Below are positions 10,658-64,000 of a stretch of 64,000 nt of DNA, piece by piece. Position 1 is the first letter of the stretch. Each line of letters opens with the position of its first letter. The notes beneath the pieces were generated by a model. The model saw nothing but the letters and a program-made list of their open reading frames with translations. It ran no database searches and was not told where the DNA came from. Origin of the DNA: Nannocystis sp. (lineage in GTDB: Bacteria > Myxococcota_A > Polyangia > Nannocystales > Nannocystaceae); NCBI RefSeq assembly GCF_016717175.1, contig NZ_JADKFZ010000004.1; one strand, 5' to 3'. The position numbers and the translations under genes are program-made.

Positions 10658-10664
10658 GCAACCC

Positions 10665-16540: not shown

Positions 16541-16590
16541 GCTCACCTGTCCCTGGAGACAGGCACCAATCGCCTGTCCCTGGGGACAGG
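16541..16590. repeat. Two adjacent copies of a short palindromic element (CCTGTCCCTGGRGACAGG) in an intergenic spacer
   Basis: cacctgtccctggagacaggcaccaatcgcctgtccctggggacaggtg. Each copy has 6-7-bp inverted arms CCTGTC/GACAGG. It sits between the 5' end of 15858..16490 and the 3' end of the DUF1552 gene. Confidence 0.8.
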
Positions 16591-30399: not shown

Positions 30400-30575
30400 G
30401 GCATACTTTTAGGGCGGGCGGCGCGGGGTTTCAAGCCAGGAAAGCGTGGTCCATGGGCCTCCGCGCGGGCTGTGTGGCCGATCGCCGTGAGGTTCACCGG
30501 TTGCGAGAGACGACGCGGCGCTGGCACACGAGGGCGGCGCGGGGCCTTGCTTGCGCGATCCCCGGGGAACTTGCG

Positions 30576-31496
30576 ATGGTTGCGCGCGTGACTACCCAGG
30601 CTGTCCGCCTCGACGCGCTCCCGCACCAGGATCGGCGGCTCATCCGTTTCGCGGGGGCCGACCTGCGGCGCTTCCTGCAGGGGCTGCTGTCGGCCGACAT
30701 CCACGCGCTTCGGCCCGGCTTCGCGGTGCCGGCGGCGATCCTGACGGTGAAGGGGAAGCTCATCAGCGAGGTGATCGTGCTGTGTGACGCGGACGACTCG
30801 ATCGCGCTGGCGGTCCCGGCCGAGATCGCGGCGTCGGTGGCGGGGCTGATCGAGCGCCACATCGTGATGGACGACGTCACGATCGGGTTCGACGAGACGC
30901 AGCGATTCGCGCTGGTGTGGCCGGGATCTGTGGCGGTCGTCGCGGGCGTGCATGGCTACGCGACGCGGCATCCGGCGCCGGGGCAGCTGCTGGTGGCCGA
31001 CGAGCTCGGCCTGACGGCGGCGCTGGCGGGGGTGACGGTGGCGAGCGAGGACGAGTGGAATCGGCATCGCGTGGTCGAGGCGGCGCCGGCGTGGGGCCAC
31101 GAGATCGTGGCGGACAGCTTCCCGCCGGAGGTCGGCTTCGTCGCGGCGGTGAGCTACGACAAGGGTTGCTTCATGGGCCAGGAGCCGCTGGCGAGGATCC
31201 ACGCGCGCGGGCAGGTGAACCGGGTGATGGTGCGGGTGCGGGCGGCGATGTTGCCCGCGGCTCCGCTCACGCTGGCCGCGCCCGATCGGCCGACGGCGGG
31301 TCGCTGGACCACGTGGGCGAGCGATCCGGCGGGCGCGGTCGGGCTGGCGATCGTGCACCGTTCGGTCGCGGTGCCGGGCACGCTGCTCGCGGCGGAGGGG
31401 GTCGGCGCGGTCGAGGTGTGCTCGGGGCCGCTGGGCGACGACCCGGGGGTGCCGGGCAAGCAGCGGGCGGCGACGGTGCAGCTCGGCAAGCGCTGA
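30576..31496 (+). CDS. ygfZ: YgfZ/GcvT-like folate-binding protein (Fe-S cluster repair / tRNA modification)
   Basis: The C-terminal signature reads AAVSYDKGCFMGQEPLARIHARG (KGC[YF]xGQE). The upstream part is aminomethyltransferase-like. Start is placed at MVARVTTQ; the longer 30393 start is possible. Confidence 0.7.
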   Translation: MVARVTTQAVRLDALPHQDRRLIRFAGADLRRFLQGLLSADIHALRPGFAVPAAILTVKGKLISEVIVLCDADDSIALAVPAEIAASVAGLIERHIVMDDVTIGFDETQRFALVWPGSVAVVAGVHGYATRHPAPGQLLVADELGLTAALAGVTVASEDEWNRHRVVEAAPAWGHEIVADSFPPEVGFVAAVSYDKGCFMGQEPLARIHARGQVNRVMVRVRAAMLPAAPLTLAAPDRPTAGRWTTWASDPAGAVGLAIVHRSVAVPGTLLAAEGVGAVEVCSGPLGDDPGVPGKQRAATVQLGKR

Positions 31497-31500
31497 GGCG

Positions 31501-31660
31501 GCTGTCCGCGGGGACAGGGGCGGGGGGACGGGCTGGCCGCGGGGACAGGTGGGGGGCGGGCGGGGGGCGGGCTGGGCTGGCCTCGGGGACAGGTCGGGCG
31601 AGCGCTCGCGCTTGCCGGCGCGGTGGGCTGTCCTTGGGGACAGGTCGGATCAGGCGAGGA
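31501..31660. repeat. Intergenic cluster of about four copies of the GGGGACAGGT / CTGTCC...GGACAG element
   Basis: gctgtccgcggggacaggggcgg ... gccgcggggacaggtgggggg ... cctcggggacaggtcgggcg ... gctgtccttggggacaggtcgg. It sits between the convergent 3' ends of the ygfZ-like gene and hpnE. Confidence 0.8.
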
Positions 31661-32984
31661 CGGCCTTGGCGGCGTCGTGGCCGCTCTGGACGGCGGACTC
31701 GATGGTGGCGGGGAGGCCGGTGCGGACCCAGTCGCCGGCCATGTAGAGGCCGCGGATCGGGCCGACGGTCTCGGGGCGGCAGTGGTAGCTGCCGGCGGCG
31801 TGGGAGATGGTGGCGCGCTTCTCTTTGATCGCGCGAAACAGGCGGATCTGCGGGACCTTGCCCGGGAAGTAGCGCTCGAGCTCGCCGCGCAGCAGCTCCT
31901 GGAGGGCCTCGGAGGGGTCGTCGATGCAGGCGCGGGCGCTCGAGATGGTGCAGTTGAGGAGCACGTCGCCGCCGACGCTGCCCTCGATCTGCGAGCGGTT
32001 GAACATCCAGTGCAGCGGGCTGCCGACCAGGCCGATGAAGGGCTCGCTGAAGGGGGCGCGGTCGACGGTGAACCACAGGTTGACGATCGGGCTGGTCTTG
32101 AGGCGGGCGATGTCCTGGTAGACGGGGTGCGCGGGCCAGGTGCCGGACAGCAGCTCGAGGAAGGCGTGCGGGGGGACGGCGGAGATGATGGTGTCGGCCG
32201 TGAGCTGCTCGCCGGACTTGAGGGTGACGCCCTGGACCTGGGAGCCGCTGGTGTCGAGCGCGCGGACCGGCTCGCCGAGGCGGACCTCGCAGCCGCGGGC
32301 GCGCAGGTAGGCGAGGGACTGGTCGACGTAGAGGCGGCTGAGCGGCACTCTGGGGACGCCGAGGCGGGAGGCGTCGCGGGTGCTGAGGAAGGCGCGCTCG
32401 AGCACGGCGGTGAACATCGCGGCGGAGGAGACGAGCGGGTCGTCGTTGAGGGTGCCCCAGATGAGCGGGTCCCAGAAGGCGTTGCGCAGGGCGGGGGTCT
32501 GGCCGAGGCGACGGAGCCAGCTGTCGCAGGTCTCGTTGTCGTCGGGGCGGGCGACCTCGCCGCGCAGGAGCAGGCCGGCGCGCACGGCCGCGGCCTTGTC
32601 GAGCACGCCGAGGCCGCGCATGGTGAGCAGGCCGGTGGCGAGGTGCAGCGGCGCGGGCAGGGCCGGGCAGTCGAGGTGCATGCGCTTGCCGCCCGGCTTG
32701 ACCATGTGGACGCTGAGGTTGCGCTGGAAGTAGATGCCGTCGGTGGAGTCGATGGTGCGCAGGAAGGCGAGGGTCTCGCGGTAGCAGCCCATCAGGAGGT
32801 GTTGACCGTTGTCGAGCTCGCGGCCGGTGGCGGCGTCGGGGAAGCTGCGGGCGCGGCCACCTCCGGCGCGGGTGGCCTCGAGGACGATCACCTTGCGGCC
32901 GGCCTCGGCGAGGCGCACGGCGGCGGACAGGCCGGCGAGGCCGGCCCCGAGGATCAGGACGGGGGAGGTTGTGGGCTCGGGCAT
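31650..32984 (-). CDS. hpnE: HpnE-type FAD-dependent hydroxysqualene dehydroxylase (amine-oxidase family)
   Basis: Rossmann motif VLILGAGLAGLSAAVRLAEAGRKVIVLEA, 444 aa. It follows two squalene/phytoene-synthase paralogs, which is the HpnCDE arrangement. The C-terminus reads GLYMAGDWVRTGLPATIESAVQSG. Confidence 0.8.
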   Translation of the reverse strand: MPEPTTSPVLILGAGLAGLSAAVRLAEAGRKVIVLEATRAGGGRARSFPDAATGRELDNGQHLLMGCYRETLAFLRTIDSTDGIYFQRNLSVHMVKPGGKRMHLDCPALPAPLHLATGLLTMRGLGVLDKAAAVRAGLLLRGEVARPDDNETCDSWLRRLGQTPALRNAFWDPLIWGTLNDDPLVSSAAMFTAVLERAFLSTRDASRLGVPRVPLSRLYVDQSLAYLRARGCEVRLGEPVRALDTSGSQVQGVTLKSGEQLTADTIISAVPPHAFLELLSGTWPAHPVYQDIARLKTSPIVNLWFTVDRAPFSEPFIGLVGSPLHWMFNRSQIEGSVGGDVLLNCTISSARACIDDPSEALQELLRGELERYFPGKVPQIRLFRAIKEKRATISHAAGSYHCRPETVGPIRGLYMAGDWVRTGLPATIESAVQSGHDAAKAVLA

Positions 32985-32991
32985 GGTGGAG

Positions 32992-33909
32992 CTAGAAGCC
33001 CGAGAGGCTGGCGCGGGCGATGGCGAGGGCGGCGACCTTGAGCTTGTCGCGGCGGCGCAGCGAGGCCCGGCGGGTGAAGACGTTGTAGTTGCGGGCGCGG
33101 ATCTCGAGGAGGATCTGGTAGTAGGTGCGGCCCATGATCTCGGCGGGGAGGAGGCGGCGGTGGCCGAGCTCCGGGAGGATCTGCCAGGCGGCCTGGTACT
33201 CGCGCTCGGCGGCCTCGGCGAAGTCGGCGGCGGCGGCGACGAAGCGGCCGTCGTAGCGGTACTCGAGGATGTCGGAGGCCGAGAGGTTGTGGCGGGCGAG
33301 CAGGTCGAGCGGGAGGTAGACGCGGCCGCGGGCGGCGTCCTCGGCGACGTCGCGGAGGATGTTGGTGTACTGGAGGGCGAGGCCCAAGTGCTCGGCGTAG
33401 CGGCGGGCGGCGGGCGACTGGTCGCGGAACAGGGCGATGCAGAGGAAGCCGACGCAGGAGGCGACGCGGTAGCAGTAGAGGCGCAGCTGGGCCATGTCGT
33501 CGTAGCTGCTGCGCTCGAGGTCCATCGCCACGCCGGCGATGATCTCGTCGAAGGCGTCGCGCGGGTAGTGGAACACGGCGTTGGTGCGGACGAGGCCGCG
33601 GCCGAGCTCGGTGCGCGGCGGGTCCTCGCCGAGGTATGGATCGTCGTAGACGCGGGCGACCTCGGCGGACCACTCGGCGAGCTGCTTGCGGGCGGTGGCC
33701 TCGCCCTCGGGTCCGGGGGCGCGCTCGTCGACGATGTCGTCGACGACGCGGCAGAACTCGTAGACCTGCTGGAGGCCGCCCTGTTGCTCGGGGCCGAGGA
33801 ACAGGAACGCGAACTTGAAGTTCGAGTTGGAGCGCTGGGTGAGGCGGTGCCACAGCGCGGCCGGGTTGGGGAGCGCGCGGATGAGGTCCATGAGCCGTCT
33901 CCGGGGCAC
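32992..33909 (-). CDS. hpnD: Squalene/phytoene-synthase-family enzyme, the second paralog (HpnD-like presqualene diphosphate synthase)
   Basis: A trans-IPPS head-to-head fold with Asp-rich motifs (FCRVVDDIVDE; YTNILRDVAEDAARGRVYLPLD). The HpnD-versus-HpnC assignment is by gene order only. Confidence 0.75.
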   Translation of the reverse strand: MPRRRLMDLIRALPNPAALWHRLTQRSNSNFKFAFLFLGPEQQGGLQQVYEFCRVVDDIVDERAPGPEGEATARKQLAEWSAEVARVYDDPYLGEDPPRTELGRGLVRTNAVFHYPRDAFDEIIAGVAMDLERSSYDDMAQLRLYCYRVASCVGFLCIALFRDQSPAARRYAEHLGLALQYTNILRDVAEDAARGRVYLPLDLLARHNLSASDILEYRYDGRFVAAAADFAEAAEREYQAAWQILPELGHRRLLPAEIMGRTYYQILLEIRARNYNVFTRRASLRRRDKLKVAALAIARASLSGF

Positions 33910-33922
33910 CGTTGGGTCCGCG

Positions 33923-34897
33923 TCAGACCTCGCCGCGGATGAAGCGGCGGCCGAAGGAGAAGAGGGAGCGGATGGCGATGCCGGCCATGTCCTTCTTCTC
34001 GAGGGTGGGGCGGAAGGCGAGGACCTCGTAGTCGAGGTCCTCGATGCGCTGGAGGATCGCCATGCCGCCGCGCCAGGTGGCCTCGAGCTCCATCGACAGG
34101 CCGGGCTCGACCTTGCGGATGAGCGGGCGGCCGCGCAGGAACATGGCGCGACAGCGGGCGACCGAGAAGGCCATGAGGTCCTTGAAGGCGCGGGTGTGGC
34201 GACCGGCGAGCAGGTCCTCGCGGGGGACGCCGAAGTGGACCAGATCCTCCTCGGGGAGGTAGCAGCGGCCGCGTGGGGTGTCGACGCTGAGGTCCTGCAG
34301 GAAGTTGGCGATCTGGAGGGCGGCGCAGATCTCGTCGCTGTAGCGGTGGAGCTGGGGCTCCTGGTGGCCGTGCACGTAGAGGACGAGCTGGCCGACGGGG
34401 TGGGCCGAGTGGAGGCAGTACTGGCGCAGCTCGTTGAAGGTTGTGTAGCGCTTCTTGGTGAGGTCCATGCGGAAGGCGGTGAGCAGCGCCTTGAACGGAC
34501 CGATCGGGATGTTGTGGCGACGGACGGTGTCTCGCAGGGCGAGGAACACGGGGTGGTTCACGTCGCGGTGGTAGCAGGCCTCGAGCAGCTGCTCCCAGCG
34601 GTCGAGGGCGTCGACGCGGCGGTTCTCGTAGCGGGGCTCGTCGGCGAAGTCGTCGGCCGTGCGCGCGTACGCGTAGATGGCCATGACGTTGGGGCGCAGG
34701 TGCGAGGGCAGGAAGCGCGAGGCGACCGGGAAGTTCTCGTAGTGGGTGGTGGCCATGCGCTCGCAGTAGCGATAGGCCGTCTCGATGGTCCACGGCCCGG
34801 GCGGGGCGCCGTCGGGCGGGTTCCAGCGCGGACCGGTCTCGTCGTCGGCGGGCGGGGGCGGGACGCAGAACAGTCGCGGTTCGGTGGCGCTGACCAT
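33923..34897 (-). CDS. hpnC: Squalene/phytoene-synthase-family enzyme, the first paralog (HpnC-like hydroxysqualene synthase)
   Basis: YRYCERMATTHYENFPVASRFLP...AIYAYARTADDFADE...LQIANFLQDLSVDTPRGRCYLP are typical squalene-synthase-like motifs. Start is placed at MVSATEP; the ORF's upstream extension (HVPPRHHL repeats) is the repeat region, not protein. Confidence 0.75.
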   Translation of the reverse strand: MVSATEPRLFCVPPPPADDETGPRWNPPDGAPPGPWTIETAYRYCERMATTHYENFPVASRFLPSHLRPNVMAIYAYARTADDFADEPRYENRRVDALDRWEQLLEACYHRDVNHPVFLALRDTVRRHNIPIGPFKALLTAFRMDLTKKRYTTFNELRQYCLHSAHPVGQLVLYVHGHQEPQLHRYSDEICAALQIANFLQDLSVDTPRGRCYLPEEDLVHFGVPREDLLAGRHTRAFKDLMAFSVARCRAMFLRGRPLIRKVEPGLSMELEATWRGGMAILQRIEDLDYEVLAFRPTLEKKDMAGIAIRSLFSFGRRFIRGEV

Positions 34898-34904
34898 GGA
34901 GACC

Positions 34905-35025
34905 TCGGAGGGGAGCGGGCGAAGGTGGTGCCGCGGGGGCACGTGGGAAGCCGGGAGGAGGTGCCGCGGGGGCACGTGCGGGAGATGATGAAGGTGGTGC
35001 CGCGGGGGCACGTGGAGAGTCGGGA
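34905..35025. repeat. Three evenly spaced (~33-bp period) copies of the palindromic motif GTGCCGCGGGGGCACGTG in the hpnC leader
   Basis: ggtgccgcgggggcacgtgggaagccgggaggaggtgccgcgggggcacgtgcgggagatgatgaaggtggtgccgcgggggcacgtggagagtcg. GTGCC/GGCAC inverted arms are followed by a CACGTG palindrome. It lies between the PMK-HMGR stop (35056) and the hpnC start (~34897). Confidence 0.85.
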
Positions 35026-35055
35026 GAATGTAGCCGAAGTGGCCGTGCGGCGGGC

Positions 35056-38401
<3,346 letters not shown>

Positions 38402-38405
<4 letters not shown>

Positions 38406-39322
38406 GGTTGCACCTCGACGAGCAGGGGCTCGTAGGTCGCGAAGGCGGCGAGCAGGGCGCTCGGGTCGGCGGGCGGGAGGACCAGCAAGGTGCCGCCGCC
38501 GCCGGCGCCGGTGAGCTTGGCCCCGAGGGCGCCCGCCGCGAGGGCGCTGGCTTGCAGGGCGTCGAGGGCGGGGGAGGAGACGTCGATGGCGCCGAGGAGG
38601 TGGTGGGCGATCGTCATGAGCTCGCCCAGGGCGGTGAGGTCCTGGTGGGCGAGGGCGCGGATGCTGGCCTCGGCGGCGGCCCCGAGGGCGGAGAGGGTCG
38701 GGGTGATCACGCTGCGCTGGCGCTCGAGGCGGGCGCGGACCTTGGCGACCTGGATCGCGGTGGAGCGGGGGATGTTGCTCGGGATGAGCAGGAGCGGGAG
38801 CGGGCCGGCGAGCGGGACGGGCTCGGCCCCGGCGCCGCGGACGAAGCGGAGCACGCCGCCCTGGGCGGCGACGCGGCTGTCGAGGCCGGAGGGTTCGCCG
38901 TGGAACACGCGCTCGCCGGCGAGGGAGGCGTCGACGAGCTCGTCGAGGTCGGCGTGTTCGCCGAGGACGAGGCGGGCGAGGGCGACGGTCAGGGCGGCGG
39001 AGCTGCCGAGGCCGGCGCGGGCGGGCAGGCAGGTGGTGCCGGTGATCGCCCAGCCGGTGACGGGGCCGTCGCAGTGGGTGAGGACCTCGAGGCAGGCGCG
39101 GGCGACCGGGTGCTCGCTGTCGGCGCGCAGCTCGAGCTCGAGTTGCCACTGCGGGATCGAGAGGGAGATCGGGAGCTTCGCGTGCTCGCGGGGGACGGCC
39201 TGCAAGCACACGCCCTGTGGGAGGCCGGCGGCGACGGCGGGGTGGCCGTAGACGACGGAGTGTTCGCCCAGCAAGATGACCTTGCCGCAGGCCTCGGCGC
39301 GGGGGTGAAGCGGGATCGGCAT
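38402..39322 (-). CDS. mvk: Mevalonate kinase (GHMP family)
   Basis: ACGKVILLGEHSVVYG is the N-terminal MK motif. ARAGLGSSAALTVALARLVL is the GHMP ATP-binding motif. The C-terminus reads KLTGAGGGGTLLVL. Confidence 0.8.
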
Positions 39323-39404
39323 GACTCGGGCGGCGGTGGGGAGCGACCTGGCGTCAGGTGATGCGACGATGGTTCGCGGTGGATCGACGTGGCGCGACGA
39401 GGGC

Positions 39405-40454
39405 TCAGGGGACCCAGCGGGCGAGGGCCGGGCCGAGGATCCGCGGGCAGCGCTGGAGCGCGGCGACGTCGGGCGAGCCGGTCAGCAGCATGATGCTGCG
39501 GACGGTGTGGATGAGGCGCTGCAGGAAGCTGAGGGCGCCGTCGAAGCCGCCGGCGCGGTGGGCCTTGAGCAGCGGGGCCGCGAGGCCGCCCGCGCTCGCC
39601 CCGAGGGCGATGGCCTTGGCGACGTCGGTGCCGCTGCGCAGGCCGCCGGTGGCGATGATCTCGAGGCCGAGGCCCTGGAGCTGGACCAGCGAGGCGGCGG
39701 TGGGGATGCCCCAGTCCCACAGCTCGTCGGCGAGCTGGCGTTCGGTCTCGTCGACGGCGCGGTGGGCCTCGACGGCGACCCAGCTGGTGCCGCCCGAGCC
39801 GCTGACGTCGACGTGGCGGACGCCGCAGGCCTGGATCTGGATGGCGACGGCGCGCGACAGGCCGCAGCCGGTCTCTTTGACGACGATCGGGATCGGGAGC
39901 TCCTGGACGAGGCGGCGGATGGTGTCGAGGCCGCCCGAGAAGTCGCGATCGCCGCCGGGCTGGACGATCTCCATGGCGGGGTTCAGGTGGATGCAGAGGG
40001 CGTCGCTGCCGGTCTCGCGGCACAGCTCGGCGATCTGGGCGGTGGTCATGGCGCGGGCCTGGACCAGGCCGAGGTTGCCGAGGAGGAGCACGTTCGGGGC
40101 CTGGTCGCGGACCTTGAAGGTCCAGGTGGTGCTCGGGCGCACGAACATGGCGCGCTGGCTGCCGAGGCCGATGCCGAGGCCGAGCTGGTCGGCGGCGCGG
40201 GCGAGGTCCTGGTTTATCGCGGCGGCCTCGTCGGTGCCGCCGGTCATGGCGGAGATGATGATCGGGGCCGCGAGGCGCTTGCCGAGCAGGTCGATGTGGC
40301 TGTCGACGGCGTCGGCGTGCATCTCCGGGAGGGCGCAGTGGACCAGCTCGACCTGCTCGAAGAGGCTGGTCTTGTCGCGGAAATTGACGTTGTCGCCGGC
40401 GCAGAGGGCGAGGTGGTCCTTCTTGCGCTGCGAGATGTCGAGGCGGTCCGCCAT
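39405..40454 (-). CDS. fni: Type-2 (FMN-dependent) isopentenyl-diphosphate delta-isomerase
   Basis: RKKDHLALC..., the TIM-barrel FMN-enzyme motifs PIIISAMTGGTDEAAAINQDLARAA ... IVVKETGCGLS ... VDVSGSGGTSW ... IIATGGLRSGTDVAKAIALGA, and 349 aa are all typical of IDI-2. Start is placed at MADRLDIS. Confidence 0.85.
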   Translation of the reverse strand: MADRLDISQRKKDHLALCAGDNVNFRDKTSLFEQVELVHCALPEMHADAVDSHIDLLGKRLAAPIIISAMTGGTDEAAAINQDLARAADQLGLGIGLGSQRAMFVRPSTTWTFKVRDQAPNVLLLGNLGLVQARAMTTAQIAELCRETGSDALCIHLNPAMEIVQPGGDRDFSGGLDTIRRLVQELPIPIVVKETGCGLSRAVAIQIQACGVRHVDVSGSGGTSWVAVEAHRAVDETERQLADELWDWGIPTAASLVQLQGLGLEIIATGGLRSGTDVAKAIALGASAGGLAAPLLKAHRAGGFDGALSFLQRLIHTVRSIMLLTGSPDVAALQRCPRILGPALARWVP

Positions 40455-40732
40455 GGGCGGAATGTAGCTCGCTGGGCGTGTGGGCGAGCGCGGGGACCCG
40501 TGTGGAAACTCCGCGGGAGCTCGGGCCGAAACTGCCGCGTGGGGCCAGCTGGGCGGGGTTTGGCGGCGGATCTCGGTGGGGGCGCCGGGCCGCCGCGTCG
40601 CTGGGTGATCCGCAGCACAAGGGGGCGGGCGCGGGGCGGGATCGCGGTGGTGGCCGTCGAGGTGCTTGTCGTGGTGGTGGCCCTCAGCACGGCTCCGTCG
40701 GTGCGGGCGTCGCGGTGGACCGCGGGGTGGGC

Positions 40733-41206
40733 TCAGTCGAGGTACTTGCCGTAGACGATCTTGTCGTCGCCGGGGCGGTAGAAGGCGGGGATGCGGGCCA
40801 GCTCGCGGTAGCCGCAGCGGAGGTAGAAGCTCTGGGTCGGCCCGTAGCTGTCCTTGCCCGAGGTCTCGATGAGCAGCAGCCGGCCGCCGCTGCTGCGCAG
40901 CTCGGACTCGACGAAGGCGATGAGGCGCTGGCCGTGGCCGTGGCCGTGGCAGGCGGGGTCGACGGCGATCCAGTACAGATCGTAGGTGCCGTCGGTGAGG
41001 GGGGTGGCGCCGTAACAGACGTAGCCGACGACGACGCCGTCGTGCTCGAGCACGTGGACCAGGTAGTCGCCCTTGTCGGGCTGGTGGATGGCCTCGGCGA
41101 CGAGCTCGTCGGCGCACTCGACCTCGGCGGGGGTGAACACGCCGGTGGCGACCAGGATCGCGTGGATCCGCGGGGCGTCGTCGGCGGCTACGCGGCGGAT
41201 GCCCAT
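40733..41206 (-). CDS. GNAT-family N-acetyltransferase
   Basis: A 157-aa protein with the acetyl-CoA-binding-like segment WIAVDPACHGHGHGQRLIAFVE typical of GNAT. The stop lies 279 bp upstream of the fni start. The start overlaps the preceding ATP-grasp gene by 19 nt. Confidence 0.75.
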   Translation of the reverse strand: MGIRRVAADDAPRIHAILVATGVFTPAEVECADELVAEAIHQPDKGDYLVHVLEHDGVVVGYVCYGATPLTDGTYDLYWIAVDPACHGHGHGQRLIAFVESELRSSGGRLLLIETSGKDSYGPTQSFYLRCGYRELARIPAFYRPGDDKIVYGKYLD

Positions 41207-42243
41207 GGTACCCGGTGGCCGTGCAGGCGGACGTGGATGAGCTCGCACAGGAAATCCTCGAAGCGGATGTCGGCCGCGGCGAGGGCCTTGCGGAAGCCGG
41301 AGCCGGGGCCGATGTCGGGGTTGGCGTTGATGTCGATGATGTTGATGCGGCCGTCGGGGCCGCGGCGGAGGTCGAAGCGGCAGTAGCCGCTCATGCCGAT
41401 CATGCCGGCGACGTGGCGGCAGGTGGCGTTGATCTCGGCGAGCAGGGTCGGGTCGAGGCTGTGGGCGATGCGGCTCTCGGTGCTGATGTCCTCGACGGAG
41501 CCGATGTTCCACTTGGCCTGCCAGCCGACGACGCGGGCCTCGGGGGCGAGGCCGGGGGCGAACACGATCTGGCCGGGCGGGAGGGCGACCATGCCCTGCT
41601 GGCTGGCGTAGAGGGCGAGGTTGTACTCCTCGCCGTCGATGAAGGCCTCGACCAGCGCGGGCTGCTGGTACTGGGCCCAGACGGCGTGGCAGCGGGCGAG
41701 CGCTGCGGCGGCGCTGCGGACGACGCCGGTGGCGTCGACGCCGATGCCGCCGTCCTCGCGGATCGGCTTGACGATGACGCGGCCGGAGGGGGCGCGGCGC
41801 AGCATCGCGTCGATGTCGGCGAGGATCTGTCCTTCGGGACAGCCAGGGGCGACGGCGAGGCCCTCGGGGGTGGCGACGCCGAGCTGGCGCAGGAGCTGCT
41901 TGATGAGGCCCTTGTCCTGGGTGAGGGCGATGGTCACCGCGTCGCAGCCGCAGTACGGGATGCCGAGGAGGTCGAGGGCGAGGACGAAGTGGGCCTCCCA
42001 GCGGGTCCGGCCGAGCACGCCCTCGCACAGGTTGAACACGAGGTCGGGGGCGTAGTCGCGGATCGCCAGGAGGGCCCCGGCGATGCAGTCGCCGACGGGG
42101 AACAGCTCGCAGTGGTGGTGCTGCGCGAGCGCGGCGTGGACGTCGAGCGCGGACTCGGCGACCTCGTCCTCGCCGAGGCGTTCGACCTCGTTGAGGTGCG
42201 GCTTGAGGTGGGTGTCGGCGTTGTAGGTGATGGCGATCTTCAT
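41188..42243 (-). CDS. D-alanine--D-alanine-ligase-family ATP-grasp enzyme
   Basis: MKIAITYNADTHL... has Ddl-like N- and central domains. The ATP-grasp motifs read GRVIVKPIREDGGIGV ... EEYNLALY ... CRFDLRRGPDGRINIIDINANPD. Start is placed at MKIAITY (ATG 42243). Confidence 0.8.
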   Translation of the reverse strand: MKIAITYNADTHLKPHLNEVERLGEDEVAESALDVHAALAQHHHCELFPVGDCIAGALLAIRDYAPDLVFNLCEGVLGRTRWEAHFVLALDLLGIPYCGCDAVTIALTQDKGLIKQLLRQLGVATPEGLAVAPGCPEGQILADIDAMLRRAPSGRVIVKPIREDGGIGVDATGVVRSAAAALARCHAVWAQYQQPALVEAFIDGEEYNLALYASQQGMVALPPGQIVFAPGLAPEARVVGWQAKWNIGSVEDISTESRIAHSLDPTLLAEINATCRHVAGMIGMSGYCRFDLRRGPDGRINIIDINANPDIGPGSGFRKALAAADIRFEDFLCELIHVRLHGHRVPWASAA

Positions 42244-42304
42244 CGTCGCGATCCTCGGCGTGCGCGGCAGACGGGTTGTCGGAGAGCGGCCAGAAAGTGC
42301 AGGG

Positions 42305-43342
42305 CTAGAAGTTGAAGGTGGAGGCGCGCTGGGACCAGCGTTCGCTGGCCACATCGAGGATGCGTGCGATCAGGCGGTCGTAGTCCCAGCCGTGGCCGCG
42401 GGCGATCCAGACCAGGTCGCTGTGGAGCGGGTTCAGACCCGGGAGGGGGTTGATCTCGATGAAGTTGGGGGCGCCGTCGCGGTCGCAGCGGATGTCGACG
42501 CGAGACAGGTCGCGGCAGGCGAAGGCGCGGTGGGCGTCGAGGGCGAGCTGGCGGATCGTGTCCAGCATCGCGGGGCTGACGGCGCCGCTGGCGAGCAGCT
42601 CGTCGCTCATGCGGTACTCGACCTGGTTGAGGTAGTCGCGCTTGACCTCGAGCGAGTAGACGAAGTCCCCGTCGTGGTGGCGGGGTTGCACCTGCATGAC
42701 GCCGAGGACCTCGGCGCCGGCGCCGTTGCCGAGGACGCCGACGGTGTACTCGTCGCCGGGCAGGAACTCCTCGATGAGCACGGGCTGGCGGTAGTTTCGC
42801 TGGAGGGTGGCGACCAGGGCGAGCAGCTCGGCGTGGTTGCGACACACCGAGTTGTTGCGGATGCCCATGGAGGAGCCCTCGGCGACCGGCTTGGCGAACA
42901 GCGGGTAGCGCAGGTCGACGCCGCCGAGGGGATCGTCGGCGCCGACGATGAGGAAGGGGGCGGTGGCGATGCCGTGGCCGGCGGCGAACAGCTTGGCGAG
43001 GCCCTTGTCGAGCGCGAGGGCCAGGGCGACCGGGTCGGAGCCGGTGTTGGGGATGCCGAGCATCTCCAGCATGGCGGGGACCTGGGACTCGCGGCCGCGG
43101 CCGCCGACGCCCTCGGCGAAGTTGAAGACGCCGTCGAGGCGATCACCGTGGGCGCGGCGGATCAGCGCGTCGAGCATGGGGGGGCCCCAGCCGAGGCGCT
43201 CGACCTCGTGGCCGAGGCGGCGCAGCGAGGCGGCGATCGCCGTGACGGTCTCCTCGGAGTCGAACTCCTCGTAGCGGTCGATCGGATCGCCCGCGAGTGG
43301 AGCGATCTCCGGGCGCAGGTTGAAGGTCAGGCCGAGGCGCAC
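42305..43342 (-). CDS. D-alanine--D-alanine-ligase-family ATP-grasp enzyme (second paralog)
   Basis: LGLTFNLRPE... resembles the neighbouring paralog. Motifs: YPLFAKPVAEGSSMGI ... DEYTVGVLGNG ... SRVDIRCDRDGAPNFIEINPLPGL. Start is chosen at the GTG with GGAAGGAGG 5-6 nt upstream; the ORF's upstream extension (LASLLAS repeats) is the 12-bp repeat array. Confidence 0.75.
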   Translation of the reverse strand: MRLGLTFNLRPEIAPLAGDPIDRYEEFDSEETVTAIAASLRRLGHEVERLGWGPPMLDALIRRAHGDRLDGVFNFAEGVGGRGRESQVPAMLEMLGIPNTGSDPVALALALDKGLAKLFAAGHGIATAPFLIVGADDPLGGVDLRYPLFAKPVAEGSSMGIRNNSVCRNHAELLALVATLQRNYRQPVLIEEFLPGDEYTVGVLGNGAGAEVLGVMQVQPRHHDGDFVYSLEVKRDYLNQVEYRMSDELLASGAVSPAMLDTIRQLALDAHRAFACRDLSRVDIRCDRDGAPNFIEINPLPGLNPLHSDLVWIARGHGWDYDRLIARILDVASERWSQRASTFNF

Positions 43343-43377
43343 GCGGACCTCCTTCCAGCGACCGAGCTGAAGGAGCG

Positions 43378-43473
43378 GTGAAGCCAGCGGTGGTGCCCGC
43401 AGTGAAGCCAACAGTGAAGCCAGCAGTGAAGCCAGCGGTGAAGCCAGCAGTGAAGCCAGCGGTGGCGTCAAAG
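43378..43473. repeat. About eight tandem copies of a 12-bp unit (gtgaagccagcr) in the leader of the ATP-grasp/mevalonate operon
   Basis: gtgaagccagcggtggtgcccgcagtgaagccaacagtgaagccagcagtgaagccagcggtgaagccagcagtgaagccagcggtggcgtcaaag. A lower-GC stretch (43590-43680) follows further upstream. Confidence 0.85.
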
Positions 43474-43802
43474 CAGCCGGGCGCGGCCCCAGGCGCAACC
43501 AGGAGCCGCGGGGTGGGCCGGTTGTCGATGGTGCGACCGGCAGGGGGAGGTTCTTCAGGCGGGGGAAGACTGGGAGGTTCCAAGGTAGCGATCCAACCGG
43601 GCAACCATAGCCAGATCGTTTCCAAGGGGAAGAGTTTTGTTTGCGGCGCTAGCGATTTGCGGGGCGGGACTGGTGGGGAATCGGGCGACCGGGTGGCCGA
43701 CGTTGCGTCGGTGGTCGTCGGGGCGGCAGGGGCGAGGTCGTCGCCGATCCTGGCGGGCGGCAGTCGGGGGTCGGCTGCCTGCGCCTGGGAGGGCCGCGGC
43801 GA

Positions 43803-46349
43803 TCAGCCGGGCTCGAGCACGAAGGGGTAGCTGACGGTGACGACGCCGCCGACTGGCTTGGGGAAGGTCCAGCGCAGCAGGGCGGCGCGGATGCATGCCC
43901 CGACGGTCTTGTCGGGGACGGTGTCCTCGCTGACGGTGGCGTTCGGGACCTTGCCCTTCAGGTCGATGTCGAACTGGATGACGACGCGGCCCTTGAGGTT
44001 GGGGTCGGCGCTGAGGCCCTGGTTGTAGCAGTGCCGGACCTCGTTGATGTGGGCGCGGACGATGCGGCGGATGATGTCCTTGTCGAGCGAGCCCTGGACC
44101 TCGGCCTTGGCCTGGCGCACGGTCGGGACGCGGGTGCCCCGGCCGCCGAAGCCGGCCCCTGCGCCGCGGCCGTAGCCGCTGCCCGTGCCGCCGCCGCCGC
44201 CCTTGCCGATGAGCCCGTAATTGCCGAGGCCGAGGGTGCCCTCGCCGTAGGCGCTGTTCTCGACGCCCTGCGGGAGCTCGAGCGGGACCTCGACGGTCTT
44301 GAGGCTGCCGTCGGGCTGCTTCTCGGGGCGGCGCTCGACGGCGACGAAGCTGGTGTACTCGGTCATGACGCGGTGCGAGATGGCGAGCTTGGTGACCTGC
44401 TCGATGATCGAGGTGTCGCCCCCGTTGTGCTTGAGGTTGGGGTAGCCGAGCAGGGCGTCGACCTGCTGGCGGGCCCACATCGAGGCCAGGCCGCTGTGCT
44501 CCTGGCCGGCGCGCAGGTCGAGCTTCAGGGGCATGGTGATCGGGGCGCCGCCGAGCCTGGCCTTGAGGGTGGCCTGGCCGGTGGTGGGGGCGCCGACGAA
44601 GCGGCCGTAGACGACGACGGGCTGGCCGGCGAAGAGGTCCGGGAGGGCGTTCGGGACGACGTCGGCGACGGGCAGGCCGCCCCAGTCGATCTCGATGTCG
44701 GTGAGCACGGGCGTGCCGATGTAGCCGTAGAAGCGCTCGACGACGGCGTCGGTGGCCTCGCCGGGGCCGACGTAGGTGACGGCGCCGCGGCCGATGCGGC
44801 TCATGCCGTCGAGGAGGTAGTGGTTGACGGAGCTGCCGACGCCGAGGCCGAACAGGCGGGCGTCGCCGCGGCGCTTCTCGATCTCGGCGAAGACCTCGAC
44901 CTCGTTGCCGATGTAGCCGTCGGTCAGGAACAGGACCATGCGCAGGCGCTCGGGGTCGGCGGGGCGCTCGAGCGCGGCCTTGATGCCGGCGAGCATCTCG
45001 GTGCCGCCGTAGCCCGCGAGGCGGGTGAGGAACTCGAGGCCGAGGGCGCGGTTGGCCGGGGTGTTGCGCAGCGGGGCCTCGGCGAGCTGGCTGGTGTCGC
45101 CGGCGAAGCGGAGGATCTGGAAGGTGTCGTCGGGGCCCATGCCGTCGAGCGCCTTCTTCACGGCGGCGACGGCGGTGGCCATCGGCGCGCCGTGCATCGA
45201 GCCGGAGGTGTCGAGCGCGAACACCAGCTCGCGCGGGCGGGCCTTGTCCTGCGGGTAGGCCTGGGGCGGCTCGACCGCGAGGGTGAAGTAGCCGCCGTCG
45301 TCACCTGTCTTTTGGGCCATGAGCTGGGCGCGCGGCTCGAGGCCGGCGAGCTGCCACGAGAGGTCGAAGTCGCGGTTGGGGCGGGCGCTGCCGCGGGCGA
45401 GCTCGAGGCGGGTGGTGGCGCCGGCGGCGTCGACGGTGAGCGCGTGGTACTTGGAGCGCAGGGCGGTGAGCGGGAAGGCGGCCTCGATAGCGACCTGGAT
45501 GTCGACGGTGGCGCAGCTGACGACGCCCTTGGCGAGGCCGGGCGAGCGGATCGCGGCCGCATCTGGGACTTGAGCGGTGTTGCCGGCGCTGTCGGGGCTG
45601 CCGGGGATGTAGCGGGGGCCGACGGTGATCGGGAGCAGCAGGCGGTAGCGGCCCTGCTCGCGGCGCAGCGGCTGGACCAGGTGCATCTCGACCTCGATGG
45701 TGCCGCCGGGCGGGATGTTGGCGACGGCCTGGGCGAACAGGTTGGGCCGGTTCTGCTCGAGCAGGGCGGCGCTCTGGCCGGCGTCGCGCGCGGCCTCGTA
45801 GGTGCGGCGGGCGTCGTCGCGGGTCTTCATGACGCCGCGGATCTCGCGACCGTCGACGCGGATCCAGTAGTCGTCGACGGCGGCGTCGGCGGGCAGCGGG
45901 AAGTTGTAGATCGCCTCGAGGCGGTCGGGCAGGGGGTTGTGGAACACCTGGATGACGGAGGTCTCGGCGACGGTGCCGATGACGACGGTGTCGTATCGGG
46001 TCTCGCGCAGCGGGAGGCCGAGCCATGCATCGCCCTTGCGGACGGCCATGCGGCCCTCGGATGCGGCGCTGTTCGGGTCGATCGGCGCTGCGTCCTGGGC
46101 GGGCGCAGCGTCGGCGCAGCGCGAGTCGTCGTCGACGGGGAGCTCCGAGCTGACGAGCTGGCCCTGGATCGGCTTGCGCGGCGGGCGGGCCGGTATCGCC
46201 AGAGCGTCGGAGCCGGGCGCGTCGTCGGGCGCGGCGACGGCGTGCTCGTCCCCTGGGGTCTCGCCGAGCTCGCCGCTGGGCGTACAGGCGAGGAGGCCGA
46301 GGAGGGGGGCGAGGACGGAAGGGCGACTCAGCGGTGATCGGGGGTGCAT
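43803..46349 (-). CDS. Secreted lipoprotein with VIT and von Willebrand factor A domains, a Gly-rich linker and an AgmX/PglI-like (TonB-C-like) C-terminal domain
   Basis: Lipobox LLGLLAC|T. The VIT-like N-terminus reads VVIGTVAETSVIQVFHNP. The VWA MIDAS-like motif is LVFALDTSGSMHG ... LFLTDGYIG. The C-terminus (IIRRIVRAHINEVRHCYNQGL...GRVVIQFDI...AALLRWTFP) resembles the C-terminus of 47495..48913. Confidence 0.85.
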   Translation of the reverse strand: MHPRSPLSRPSVLAPLLGLLACTPSGELGETPGDEHAVAAPDDAPGSDALAIPARPPRKPIQGQLVSSELPVDDDSRCADAAPAQDAAPIDPNSAASEGRMAVRKGDAWLGLPLRETRYDTVVIGTVAETSVIQVFHNPLPDRLEAIYNFPLPADAAVDDYWIRVDGREIRGVMKTRDDARRTYEAARDAGQSAALLEQNRPNLFAQAVANIPPGGTIEVEMHLVQPLRREQGRYRLLLPITVGPRYIPGSPDSAGNTAQVPDAAAIRSPGLAKGVVSCATVDIQVAIEAAFPLTALRSKYHALTVDAAGATTRLELARGSARPNRDFDLSWQLAGLEPRAQLMAQKTGDDGGYFTLAVEPPQAYPQDKARPRELVFALDTSGSMHGAPMATAVAAVKKALDGMGPDDTFQILRFAGDTSQLAEAPLRNTPANRALGLEFLTRLAGYGGTEMLAGIKAALERPADPERLRMVLFLTDGYIGNEVEVFAEIEKRRGDARLFGLGVGSSVNHYLLDGMSRIGRGAVTYVGPGEATDAVVERFYGYIGTPVLTDIEIDWGGLPVADVVPNALPDLFAGQPVVVYGRFVGAPTTGQATLKARLGGAPITMPLKLDLRAGQEHSGLASMWARQQVDALLGYPNLKHNGGDTSIIEQVTKLAISHRVMTEYTSFVAVERRPEKQPDGSLKTVEVPLELPQGVENSAYGEGTLGLGNYGLIGKGGGGGTGSGYGRGAGAGFGGRGTRVPTVRQAKAEVQGSLDKDIIRRIVRAHINEVRHCYNQGLSADPNLKGRVVIQFDIDLKGKVPNATVSEDTVPDKTVGACIRAALLRWTFPKPVGGVVTVSYPFVLEPG

Positions 46350-63900: not shown

Positions 63901-64000
63901 GCCGAGCGTGGCCGACACTCTGGCGCTGCGGGCCCGCGGGGACGGGCTCCTGGCGGCGATCGGCGTCGGCAGCCGGGTGCACGTGTGGGACGTGCTCGGC
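60956..64000 (+). CDS. STAND-type P-loop NTPase with the NPYxGxxxF N-terminal motif and DQFEE Walker B, then a TM helix and C-terminal WD40-like beta-propeller repeats; 3' end beyond the window
   Basis: Translated by hand from the sequence, since the ORF track omits it because it has no in-window stop. Start is GTG 60956, overlapping the upstream TGA (GTGA). The opening reads MSPAPANPYVGPRAFTTGEALYGRSGERAALLDLLVAERVVLLHAPSGAGKSSLLYAGLIPDL; Walker B is EVLIFDQFEEVL; then ...GIVWFELAHDRLIGPVRASNAKW. The TM helix reads LTAAALLGLVVTLATLAVV, followed by a coiled-coil-like EEQRRREAAEAERD. WD-like repeats include RLVLWDLRT, VKLWRWGT, VVLWDMSSG and RVHVWDVLG. (64000-60956+1) is divisible by 3 and no in-frame stop was seen. 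Confidence 0.8.
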   Translation, partial: MSPAPANPYVGPRAFTTGEALYGRSGERAALLDLLVAERVVLLHAPSGAGKSSLLYAGLIPDLRAEGFVVRPPIRVGTEPPASAAGVNRFSFSAVLSLAEGETQPRPLADLATLSLASYLGPAPAEAEVLIFDQFEEVLTIDPIDRASKHAFFADLAAALRSSQRWAVIAIREDHLAGLAPYQRALPTRLKTTFHLDLLGADAALAAVQLPARAAGVEFSDAAARKLVDDLRQVQVQTAEGGTARVLGPYVEPVQLQVACRDLWERKPAEDLTIDERDVQQIGDVDQALTRYYDAQIAAVAGATGLAEVELRRWFDRALISEQGLRGQVLQGATQTQGLANAVVRALVDTHLVRAEQRRGIVWFELAHDRLIGPVRASNAKWSTDHLSVIQRQAQLWDSHGRPESLLLPDLAVIERQLADPGMAALERSFLEQSKLLRQREAESLRLRRIVRWLTAAALLGLVVTLATLAVVYQLRSDEEQRRREAAEAERDAAAAATVAARQRGREALSRQLAATVLVMPPELAELAALYAVAASQMASGWDIRGCLGNLAARAPQLRALLPGTMAPVMLAHDPGRGVLAGLQDDGRLVLWDLRTRRVIASPRAGIGHEAVIFDASRQQFVTADRDATVTFYAPANGGGRSLALEKGPWRRIAVSGDGARLATADAFGRVWLVDAHTGSKLTGVELPELHDGRVIEQMALDADGETLAFATADGDVKLWRWGTGGVLRAEVPAAEREGGSPSEREGGSPAGLRFGAGGALVGLLGDGRVLRWTLSAKGAPGKPTQLAGLAEGAVAPDSGQRARFLALGLAADGASAAGVLCLDACTREVLLQWDAASGRVDGVAIEMSDRDTKDRRFDLRVTSQVAIAAGVRVAARVWDLVGWRPLAGSPKDVRALAVSGDGELVAAAGCPADAGACGESEVTVWRARERTRVYAGLRGLGEVAQGLSFFAGDRRLAVLGRDGGVVLWDMSSGQATPGPRLPSVADTLALRARGDGLLAAIGVGSRVHVWDVLG

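What the first reader, a model, noticed from the sequence alone, without database searches (positions are those of the whole stretch)
31650..43342. Contiguous minus-strand isoprenoid operon: ATP-grasp x2 → GNAT → fni → mvk → mvaD → PMK-HMGR → hpnC → hpnD → hpnE
The complete lower mevalonate pathway plus IDI-2 is directly followed by the three-enzyme HpnCDE route to squalene. Several gene pairs show overlapping-stop (ATGA) coupling, indicating one transcription unit. HMG-CoA synthase and FPP synthase are absent from the window. Linking mevalonate genes to HpnCDE, rather than to a single squalene synthase, in a Myxococcota-like genome suggests dedicated squalene supply. Some myxobacteria make sterols, although no cyclase gene is in the window. 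The upstream ATP-grasp/GNAT genes appear to be part of the same operon.
Basis: partly seen in the sequence, partly recalled or inferred. Interest (0 to 1): 0.55.

Follow-up and report, generated by a model that had tools for sequence, protein, structure and literature searches.

The report
Nannocystis mevalonate-to-squalene (HpnCDE) operon
This is the conserved gene block that sterol-making Nannocystis-type myxobacteria use to turn HMG-CoA into isoprenoid units and then into squalene; the gene calls are right, but the arrangement is already in the literature and the three upstream genes are an unrelated neighbour.

Summary
The gene order is real. On the minus strand, 31650-40454 encodes IDI-2, mevalonate kinase, diphosphomevalonate decarboxylase, a GHMP-kinase/class II HMG-CoA reductase fusion, HpnC, HpnD-like and HpnE. 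They are not CrtB/CrtI-type enzymes. The window is an uncultured Nannocystis sp., and NCBI already annotates these proteins.

The seven-gene block is conserved in about 45 Nannocystaceae loci. The kinase-reductase fusion occurs in the same loci that carry hpnCDE.

Three points need correcting:
- The two ATP-grasp genes and the GNAT gene are an independent cassette. Only the same-species locus has them here. In 31 of 35 relatives the gene upstream of idi2 is divergent. A conserved -10-like box lies 6 nt before the idi2 ATG.
- Only one of the three ATGA junctions is a true start. hpnC starts at 34897 and mvaD at 38348.
- A 158-nt spacer before hpnC carries the same promoter-like box plus three dyad repeats, so an internal promoter is likely.

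The MVA-hpn linkage in Nannocystineae was noted in 2022 and HpnCDE in Nannocystis in 2023. The added value is modest: the fusion probably supplies the PMK and HMGR reported missing in N. pusilla. Interest is low to moderate.

The parts
39405..40454 (-). idi2/fni, type 2 isopentenyl-diphosphate isomerase (349 aa); first gene of the conserved block
   Evidence: TIGR02151 370 bits vs cut-off 281. NCBI name WP_293252519.1. Orthologs align from residue 1.
40455..40732 (-). 278-nt non-coding gap holding the putative operon promoter: GCTACATT (40461-40468, 6 nt before the ATG) and the box GAGTTTCCACACGGG (40497-40511)
   Evidence: No coding signal; sequence. GCTACATT occurs only twice in the window, both times in spacers of this operon. 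Both boxes are conserved upstream of idi2 in the N. exedens clade. Other clades also carry a -10-like hexamer 6-10 nt before the ATG.
38402..39322 (-). mvk, mevalonate kinase (306 aa)
   Evidence: TIGR00549 204 bits vs cut-off 163. NCBI MBK9754443.1.
37362..38348 (-). mvaD, diphosphomevalonate decarboxylase (328 aa; true start 38348, not 38405)
   Evidence: TIGR01240 233 bits vs cut-off 171; the phosphomevalonate-decarboxylase model scores only 127 vs 475. Homology starts at residue about 20 of the long ORF. GGAG lies before the ATG and is shared with L001. NCBI model is 328 aa.
38349..38401 (-). 53-nt mvk-mvaD spacer containing a C37 homopolymer on the coding strand (G37 on the + strand, 38358-38394)
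   Evidence: TRF; sequence. It is the only homopolymer of 8 or more bases in the window. L001 has a different 80-nt spacer here.
35056..37365 (-). Fusion gene (769 aa): N-terminal GHMP kinase (probable phosphomevalonate kinase, residues about 1-340) joined directly to a class II HMG-CoA reductase (about 346-769). Its ATG overlaps the mvaD stop (ATGA, 37362-37365).
   Evidence: Pfam and NCBIfam. The HMGR part aligns end to end with P. mevalonii HMGR 1QAX, E=1.6e-116. For the N-domain, the best PDB sequence and fold match is 3K17, followed by MVKs and PMKs. The AF2 model has pLDDT 91.6. It is a single ORF in all Nannocystaceae loci.
34898..35055 (-). 158-nt spacer between the MVA and hpn modules: GCTACATT box (35027-35034), then three dyads GTGCC-N5-GGCAC (34928-34942, 34961-34975, 34997-35011), then GAGG before the hpnC ATG
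   Evidence: Sequence. TRF gives period 33, 3.1 copies. Three dyads against 0.25 expected. The dyad is conserved in L001 (3 copies) and L002 (1 copy). The GCTACAGT box is conserved in L002, L003 and L025.
33923..34897 (-). hpnC, hydroxysqualene synthase (324 aa; true start 34897, not 35059)
   Evidence: TIGR03464 314 bits vs cut-off 250. The conserved N-terminus MVSATEPRLF is shared by 14 orthologs. NCBI 'squalene synthase HpnC', 324 aa.
32992..33891 (-). hpnD-like, presqualene diphosphate synthase (299 aa)
   Evidence: TIGR03465 251 bits (cut-off 279), against 137 for HpnC and 141 or less for CrtB models. NCBI name 'squalene/phytoene synthase family protein'.
31650..32984 (-). hpnE, FAD-dependent hydroxysqualene dehydroxylase (444 aa); last gene of the block
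   Evidence: TIGR03467 416 bits vs cut-off 283; phytoene desaturase scores 112 vs 569. NCBI name HpnE.
31497..31649 (-). Region between the convergent stops of hpnE and the GcvT-like gene, with four copies of the palindrome CTGTCCCCnnGG(A/C)CAG; probable 3' end of the unit
   Evidence: Sequence. Palindrome family: 34 matches against 0.85 expected. The simple terminator scan found nothing significant.
40733..43342 (-). Neighbouring, separate cassette: Ddl-like ATP-grasp (42305-43342), Ddl-like ATP-grasp (41188-42243), GNAT (40733-41206). Not part of the isoprenoid unit.
   Evidence: Pfam and NCBIfam. The two ATP-grasp genes are paralogs at 29% identity. The cassette is present upstream of idi2 only in L001. 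It lies elsewhere in N. punicea. The same trio occurs in Thermoanaerobaculia.

Best explanation
Window 31650-40454 (minus strand) is the Nannocystaceae version of a biosynthetic 'HMG-CoA to squalene' gene block in an uncultured Nannocystis sp.

Proposed pathway:
1. The class II HMGR domain of the fusion protein reduces HMG-CoA, which is made elsewhere, to mevalonate.
2. MVK, the fused GHMP-kinase domain (acting as phosphomevalonate kinase) and MvaD convert mevalonate to IPP.
3. IDI-2 equilibrates IPP and DMAPP.
4. An FPP synthase encoded elsewhere makes FPP.
5. HpnD condenses two FPP to presqualene diphosphate, HpnC hydrolyses and rearranges it to hydroxysqualene, and HpnE reduces that to squalene.
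6. The squalene most likely feeds the family's lanosterol-type sterol pathway.

Proposed transcription: it starts at a promoter immediately upstream of idi2, giving a near-leaderless mRNA. The MVA genes are tightly packed. A second, internal promoter or operator region probably sits in the 158-nt spacer before hpnC.

Shown: gene identities, gene order, conservation across the family, the fusion, and the independence of the ATP-grasp/GNAT cassette.

Inferred: enzyme activities, PMK function of the N-domain, promoter positions, co-transcription, and sterols as the sink.
For: - Family assignments are above curated cut-offs for HpnE, HpnC, IDI-2, MVK, MDD and HMGR.
- The HMGR domain aligns over its full length with 1QAX and keeps the ENVIG, DAMGAN, HNKG, GNDW and GHM-LHAR motifs. 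That these motifs hold the catalytic residues is from my own knowledge of class II HMGR.
- GHMP motifs I to III are invariant in the N-domain alignment. Its fold is confident and closest to 3K17, MVKs and PMKs.
- Standalone homologs at about 40% identity are named phosphomevalonate kinase by JGI.
- The seven-gene order is conserved in 33 complete loci, plus partial ones, from Nannocystis, Enhygromyxa, Plesiocystis, Paraliomyxa and MAGs.
- The fusion ORF co-occurs with hpnCDE. Other Myxococcota loci have unfused PMK and HMGR and no hpnCDE.
- The gene upstream of idi2 is divergent in 31 of 35 loci.
- A promoter-like box is conserved at both spacers.
- Literature: Nannocystis has HpnCDE and makes sterols (PMC10152446). 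All cultured Nannocystaceae carry a lanosterol-type Osc (bioRxiv 10.1101/2024.11.01.621555). Myxobacteria use the MVA pathway (PMC8237579).
Against: - HpnD (251 vs 279) and the PMK-like domain (80 vs 166) score below curated cut-offs, and the fold search cannot separate PMK from MVK.
- There are no transcript data.
- The consensus sigma-70 scan found no promoter and no significant terminators.
- The 158-nt spacer and the C37 tract could break or attenuate co-transcription.
- The sink of the squalene (sterols, hopanoid-like products or C30 carotenoids) is not encoded in the window.
- TIGR00532 is named 'degradative' HMGR, so cofactor use and direction are inferred from context only.
Confidence: 0.85

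Rival explanations
1. One reading: one ten-gene operon in which the two ATP-grasp ligases and the GNAT are co-transcribed with, and functionally belong to, the isoprenoid genes.
For: The genes share a strand. No detectable intrinsic terminator lies in the 278-nt gap. The GNAT and ATP-grasp genes overlap each other.
Against: The cassette is absent upstream of idi2 in all loci except the same-species L001. The upstream gene is divergent in 31 of 35 relatives. N. punicea keeps the ATP-grasp pair about 2.8 Mb from its MVA operon. The same trio stands next to a lysine-2,3-aminomutase-like gene in Thermoanaerobaculia. A conserved promoter-like box sits directly before idi2.
Confidence: 0.08
2. Two adjacent but independently transcribed units: idi2-mvk-mvaD-fusion, and hpnCDE driven only by its own promoter in the 158-nt spacer. 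Adjacency would then reflect co-inheritance rather than co-transcription.
For: In relatives a spacer of 2-591 nt (mostly about 20-250 nt) lies between the fusion gene and hpnC, and the two never overlap. The only -4 call, in L001, uses the over-long hpnC ORF rejected. By contrast, -4 overlaps are common within the MVA module. GCTACA(T/G)T, the same box as before idi2, lies in this spacer in the window, L001, L002, L003 and L025. Three dyad repeats follow it.
Against: No terminator-like structure lies in the spacer, and the RNA fold is not significant (z = -1.5). Same-strand order is strictly conserved in 47 loci. The N. exedens clade lacks the box in this spacer.
Confidence: 0.3
3. The squalene is made mainly for hopanoid-type or other non-sterol triterpenoids, or for squalene-derived C30 carotenoids. 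This matches the published description of these genes as 'hopanoid synthesis genes'.
For: PMC9304148 calls them hopanoid genes. SHC-like proteins occur in some myxobacteria, next to SQMO in Plesiocystis and Enhygromyxa (PMC7306690). A squalene route to C30 carotenoids exists in other phyla (PMC9907078).
Against: No shc or crtN-like gene lies in the window or within 10 kb in any locus. Nannocystaceae are documented sterol producers with Osc and demethylases.
Confidence: 0.1
4. The three 'hpn' genes are carotenoid enzymes (CrtB/CrtM plus CrtI/CrtN) that make phytoene or dehydrosqualene pigments.
For: They belong to the same superfamilies, SQS_PSY and amine oxidase.
Against: CrtB models score 141-146 bits or less against cut-offs of 480-550. 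Phytoene desaturase scores 112 vs 569 and the CrtI family 45 vs 238. HpnC and HpnE exceed their own cut-offs.
Confidence: 0.02

Closest known systems
MVA cluster with hpn genes of Nannocystineae (N. exedens, P. pacifica, etc.) as drawn in Perez-Castano et al. 2022, Environ Microbiol, Fig. S5A (PMC9304148)
   Same: Same family, same linkage of the primary class II HMGR and MVA genes to hpn genes. My loci L005 (N. exedens) and L030 (P. pacifica) show the identical seven-gene order.
   Different: The paper's text calls them hopanoid genes. Its held text does not mention the kinase-HMGR fusion, promoter positions or the squalene/sterol reading; the figure itself was not visible to me. The window species also has a foreign cassette upstream and expanded spacers.
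HpnCDE three-step squalene pathway of Zymomonas mobilis / Rhodopseudomonas palustris (Pan et al. 2015, cited)
   Same: Three adjacent genes matching the HpnC, HpnD and HpnE equivalog models, in the order C-D-E.
   Different: According to PMC8237579, HpnCDE in most bacteria goes with the MEP pathway. From my own knowledge, it usually sits in hopanoid (shc) clusters. Here it is fused to an MVA operon, no shc is nearby, and HpnD scores slightly below the curated cut-off.
MVA operon of other Myxococcota (Polyangia, Sandaracinaceae and Myxococcaceae MAG loci L049-L063)
   Same: mvk-mvaD-PMK-HMGR in the same order, with HMGR 55-59% identical.
   Different: In the loci where both parts could be aligned (L049, L051, L056), PMK and HMGR are separate ORFs in different frames. 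idi2 is elsewhere or inverted. No hpnCDE lies downstream. Most myxobacteria use single-enzyme SQS instead (PMC8237579).
MvaE of enterococci (acetoacetyl-CoA thiolase fused to class II HMGR); compare PDB 7M1Z
   Same: A class II HMGR fused to another MVA-pathway enzyme.
   Different: The partner here is a GHMP kinase at the N-terminus, catalysing a non-adjacent step (step 3 versus step 1), so direct substrate channelling is not expected.

Membership tests
HpnCDE squalene route | HpnC (hydroxysqualene synthase) equivalog | tested here: met
   TIGR03464 313.9 bits vs cut-off 250.45; second-best model HpnD 191. NCBI names it HpnC.
HpnCDE squalene route | HpnD (presqualene diphosphate synthase) equivalog | tested here: inconclusive
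   TIGR03465 250.7 bits, below the cut-off of 278.6, but clearly the best hit (HpnC 137, CrtB 141). NCBI leaves it as 'squalene/phytoene synthase family'.
HpnCDE squalene route | HpnE (FAD-dependent hydroxysqualene dehydroxylase) equivalog | tested here: met
   TIGR03467 416.2 bits vs cut-off 283.
HpnCDE squalene route | Conversion of FPP to squalene via PSPP and hydroxysqualene | not testable with these tools
   Needs enzyme assays or heterologous expression.
Classical bacterial mevalonate pathway (lower part plus HMGR) | Mevalonate kinase, diphosphomevalonate decarboxylase and class II HMGR above curated thresholds | tested here: met
   204 vs 163, 233 vs 171 and 359 vs 260 bits. HMGR aligns over its full length with 1QAX, E=1.6e-116.
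Classical bacterial mevalonate pathway (lower part plus HMGR) | Phosphomevalonate kinase | tested here: inconclusive
   The N-domain of the fusion scores 80 bits on TIGR01220 (cut-off 166) and 75 on the MVK model. Its fold equally resembles MVKs and PMKs, with 3K17 the best match. The PMK role is inferred from pathway completion and from the JGI names of its homologs.
Type 2 IPP isomerase | TIGR02151 equivalog | tested here: met
   370.3 bits vs cut-off 281.3.
   Best CrtB model 146 vs 550; phytoene desaturase 112 vs 569; crtI family 45 vs 238.
Single operon including ATP-grasp x2 and GNAT | Conserved co-occurrence and orientation with the isoprenoid genes in relatives | tested here: not met
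   Present only in L001. The upstream gene is divergent in 31 of 35 loci. The cassette is found elsewhere in other genomes.
Single operon (seven-gene core) | One transcript from idi2 to hpnE | not testable with these tools
   Only indirect evidence is available: same strand, short gaps, one ATGA overlap, and a 158-nt spacer with a promoter-like box.

The most novel reading that the evidence does not exclude
The kinase-HMGR fusion and the hpnCDE linkage arose together as a defining trait of Nannocystaceae. The spacer before hpnC (promoter-like box plus three 33-nt-spaced GTGCC-N5-GGCAC dyads) would then be an operator through which a so far unknown regulator sets squalene and sterol flux separately from general isoprenoid supply. 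That would be a bacterial counterpart of sterol-responsive control.
Probability: 0.1. Interest if true: 0.55.

Novelty: new member of a known kind. Interest (0 to 1): 0.3.

Why it matters
Nannocystaceae are the bacteria with the most eukaryote-like sterol pathways and feature in debates on the origin of eukaryotic sterols.

This locus shows that their precursor supply combines MVA with HpnCDE, not the MVA plus SQS combination usually quoted for myxobacteria. The combination is fixed as one conserved block across the family.

Practically, the fused kinase-HMGR gene probably supplies the PMK and HMGR that a 2023 study could not find in N. pusilla. The block also gives a compact seven-gene HMG-CoA-to-squalene cassette for engineering.

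None of this changes current understanding, because the linkage and the enzymes were already reported.

Tried and rejected
- **Sigma-70 and terminator scan** of 30000-44500: no promoters, and terminator-like sites at chance level.
- **Rfam scan** of the whole window: no family.
- **RNA folding** of the 158-nt spacer: not more stable than shuffles (z = -1.5). I therefore dropped the idea of a structured leader or riboswitch.
- **Search for the 18-mer dyad** CACGTGCCCCCGCGGCAC in metagenome contigs: 35 single hits in unrelated contigs, none next to operon homologs. These are consistent with chance, so there is no evidence for a wider regulon or a mobile element.
- **Outgroup search with HpnC**: the best 120 hits were all Nannocystaceae-like (64% identity or more), so the search gave no information on the origin of the hpn genes.
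- **Fold search to decide PMK versus MVK**: both kinds of kinase match similarly.
- **Genes inserted between hpnD and hpnE** in Enhygromyxa and Plesiocystis: an FG-GAP protein, an unknown protein and a transposase, none sterol-related.
- **Catabolic reading** suggested by the 'degradative' HMGR name: rejected because MVK, MDD and IDI-2 are co-encoded.

Full report
**Observation**

The window is 68-77% G+C, so I called genes from third-position GC and frame changes.

Pfam and NCBIfam confirm each identity:
- HpnE: 416 bits, cut-off 283
- HpnD-like: 251, cut-off 279. This is its best hit; HpnC scores 137 and CrtB 141.
- HpnC: 314, cut-off 250
- A 769-aa protein with an N-terminal GHMP kinase and a C-terminal class II HMG-CoA reductase: 359, cut-off 260
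- Diphosphomevalonate decarboxylase: 233, cut-off 171
- Mevalonate kinase: 204, cut-off 163
- Type 2 IPP isomerase: 370, cut-off 281
- A GNAT and two D-Ala-D-Ala-ligase-like ATP-grasp proteins

Carotenoid models score far below their cut-offs.

Pfam scans of the other window genes found no HMG-CoA synthase, prenyl synthase, squalene monooxygenase or cyclase. One gene, 10698-14516, was not scanned.

**Source**

A scan of species-representative genomes with the fusion protein returned 63 loci. The best is a Nannocystis sp. MAG (L001, 97-100% amino-acid identity).

An exact-sequence look-up shows that the window's proteins are NCBI records MBK9754438-46 of another Nannocystis sp. MAG, on a 915-kb contig. 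They are already named HpnE, HpnC, 'HMG-CoA reductase, degradative', diphosphomevalonate decarboxylase, mevalonate kinase, IDI-2, GNAT and Ddl-family.

**Corrected gene models**

Ortholog alignments start at residue about 55 of the long hpnC ORF and about 20 of the long mvaD ORF.

Fourteen orthologs share the N-terminus MVSATEPRLF. This places the hpnC start at ATG 34897, giving 324 aa.

mvaD starts at ATG 38348, preceded by GGAG. That start is shared with L001. The NCBI models agree: 324 and 328 aa.

Of the three ATGA junctions, only mvaD/fusion (37362-37365) is therefore a real start-stop overlap. The real gaps are:

| Junction | Gap |
|---|---|
| GNAT to idi2 | 278 nt |
| idi2 to mvk | 82 nt |
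| mvk to mvaD | 53 nt |
| mvaD to fusion | -4 nt (overlap) |
| fusion to hpnC | 158 nt |
| hpnC to hpnD | 31 nt |
| hpnD to hpnE | 7 nt |

**Comparative anatomy**

tblastn of the window proteins against all loci shows idi2-mvk-mvaD-fusion-hpnC-hpnD-hpnE in 33 complete loci, plus partial ones. The loci come from Nannocystis, Enhygromyxa, Plesiocystis, Paraliomyxa and related MAGs.

A convergent GcvT-like gene usually follows, then OEP and MlaC genes.

HpnC is the most conserved protein, with a median 76% identity against 59% for the fusion.

The kinase and reductase are one uninterrupted ORF in all these loci. In the other Myxococcota loci where both parts aligned (L049, L051, L056) they lie in different frames, and no hpnCDE follows. 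In this sample, fusion and hpn linkage are therefore co-distributed family traits.

The junction is direct. A conserved APGLR-E-RPP-SR-GFF segment runs straight into the HMGR N-terminus.

**The upstream ATP-grasp/GNAT genes**

They occur upstream of idi2 only in L001. In 31 of 35 loci with a call, the upstream gene is on the opposite strand.

N. punicea carries the ATP-grasp pair at about 8.32 Mb, whereas its MVA operon is at about 5.49 Mb.

In Thermoanaerobaculia the same ATP-grasp/ATP-grasp/GNAT trio follows a lysine-2,3-aminomutase-like radical-SAM gene.

This is an independent cassette that happens to sit upstream in this species.

**Promoter evidence (inferred)**

GCTACATT occurs only twice in the 64-kb window (0.49 expected). 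Both copies are on the minus strand and both lie in spacers of this block. One is 6 nt before the idi2 ATG; the other is 21 nt after the fusion stop.

Across all fetched loci, 9 of 11 matches lie at these two orthologous positions.

The N. exedens clade shares GCAGCTACATT-N10-ATG and an upstream box GAGTTTCC(A/G)CACGGG. Other clades have TGGYAA-N16-TAnnCT-N8-ATG or similar.

A -10-like hexamer 6-10 nt from the start codon, with no Shine-Dalgarno sequence, suggests a leaderless idi2 mRNA.

In the hpnC spacer the box is followed by three dyads, GTGCC-N5-GGCAC, at 33-36-nt spacing (3 found against 0.25 expected). They are conserved in L001 (3 copies) and L002 (1 copy). This could be an operator.

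There is no Rfam match, no significant RNA fold and no wider occurrence of the dyad.

**The fusion protein**

The C-terminal part aligns over its full length with P. mevalonii HMGR (1QAX, E=1.6e-116). It keeps the ENVIG, DAMGAN, HNKG, GNDW and GHM-LHAR motifs. That these motifs carry the catalytic residues is from my own knowledge.

The N-domain keeps GHMP motifs I to III, which are invariant in 32 homologs. It models confidently (pLDDT 91.6).

Its best match is 3K17, the Listeria Lin0012 protein. From memory, this is the PMK of the Listeria MVA operon. MVKs and PMKs follow.

Because a separate MVK passes its cut-off and MvaD is the diphosphomevalonate type, a PMK role is the logical assignment, but it is inferred. 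Standalone homologs at about 40% identity are named PMK by JGI.

**Literature**

- Perez-Castano et al. [quoted passage not shown] S5A).
- The nannosterol paper (PMC10152446) reports HpnCDE, HMGS, MVK, MDD and IDI in N. pusilla. [quoted passage not shown] The fusion gene probably supplies both missing functions.
- In N. pusilla Na p29 the fusion ORF carries two 1-nt deletions relative to a 94.5%-identical relative. This could explain a missed annotation.
- Hoshino and Gaucher (PMC8237579) say most myxobacteria combine MVA with SQS. Nannocystaceae are the MVA plus HpnCDE exception.
- All cultured Nannocystaceae carry a lanosterol-type Osc, so sterols are the likely sink.

**Verdict**

The claim about the operon's extent is wrong at the upstream end and unproven at the hpnC junction.

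The kind of locus is already known. What this analysis adds is the clade-wide fusion, the corrected starts, the likely two-promoter layout and the independence of the neighbouring cassette.

Noticed in passing
window 38358-38394: A G37 homopolymer (C37 on the coding strand) fills most of the mvk-mvaD spacer. It is the only homopolymer of 8 or more bases in the window. The same-species locus L001 has an unrelated 80-nt spacer there. It may be an assembly or poly-G artefact, or a hypervariable spacer.
   Followed up: partly
window 34928-35011: Three tandem copies, 33-36 nt apart, of CACGTGCCCCCGCGGCACC lie in the spacer before hpnC. Each contains the dyad GTGCC-N5-GGCAC. L001 has three copies and L002 has one. 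This is a possible operator. It is not a structured RNA and is not found elsewhere.
   Followed up: yes
window 16547-16589, 30094-30269, 31502-31643 and others: A REP-like palindrome family, CTGTCCCCnnGGACAG, gives 34 matches against 0.85 expected. It clusters in 2-5 copies in intergenic regions, including the region between the convergent hpnE and GcvT-like stops. A related CCTGTCCC repeat sits in L001's mvk-mvaD spacer.
   Followed up: partly
window 37099-37182 (fusion residues about 62-89): An in-frame 18-aa tandem duplication (RDHLSSRTGP twice) lies in a loop of the kinase domain. Its DNA matches the REP-like palindrome with one mismatch. It is specific to this lineage and forms the only low-confidence segment of the AF2 model (residues 74-87).
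   Followed up: partly
window 43374-43464: A 12-nt tandem repeat (GGCTTCACTGCT on the coding strand, 7.6 copies) lies just upstream of the ribosome-binding site and GTG start of the first ATP-grasp gene, in a region with no coding signal.
   Followed up: no
window 40733-43342; L064 6001-8133; L065 4489-8251: The cassette of two paralogous Ddl-like ATP-grasp ligases plus a GNAT recurs in Thermoanaerobaculia directly after a lysine-2,3-aminomutase-like radical-SAM gene. This hints at an amino-acid or beta-lysine ligation/acetylation pathway of unknown product.
   Followed up: partly
L054 (N. pusilla Na p29) 10001-12224: The kinase-HMGR ORF carries two single-base deletions relative to Nannocystis sp. 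RBIL2. These are either sequencing errors or a pseudogene. They may explain why PMK and HMGR were reported missing in N. pusilla.
   Followed up: partly
L035 14293-16562; L030 14482-21800; L026, L042, L023: In Enhygromyxa and Plesiocystis an FG-GAP repeat gene and an unknown gene are inserted between hpnD and hpnE. In P. pacifica a DDE transposase is also inserted and hpnE lies about 7.5 kb away. The hpn module is therefore not always contiguous.
   Followed up: partly
window 58896-64000: A CHAT-SIR2 protein is followed by an nSTAND1 NTPase with WD40 repeats. This pair looks like a defence or cell-death type module.
   Followed up: no
window 30050-30590: About 500 nt without coding signal lie between the OEP gene and the GcvT-like gene. 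Five REP-like palindromes fill this stretch, and the start of the GcvT-like gene (30393 or 30588) is uncertain.
   Followed up: no
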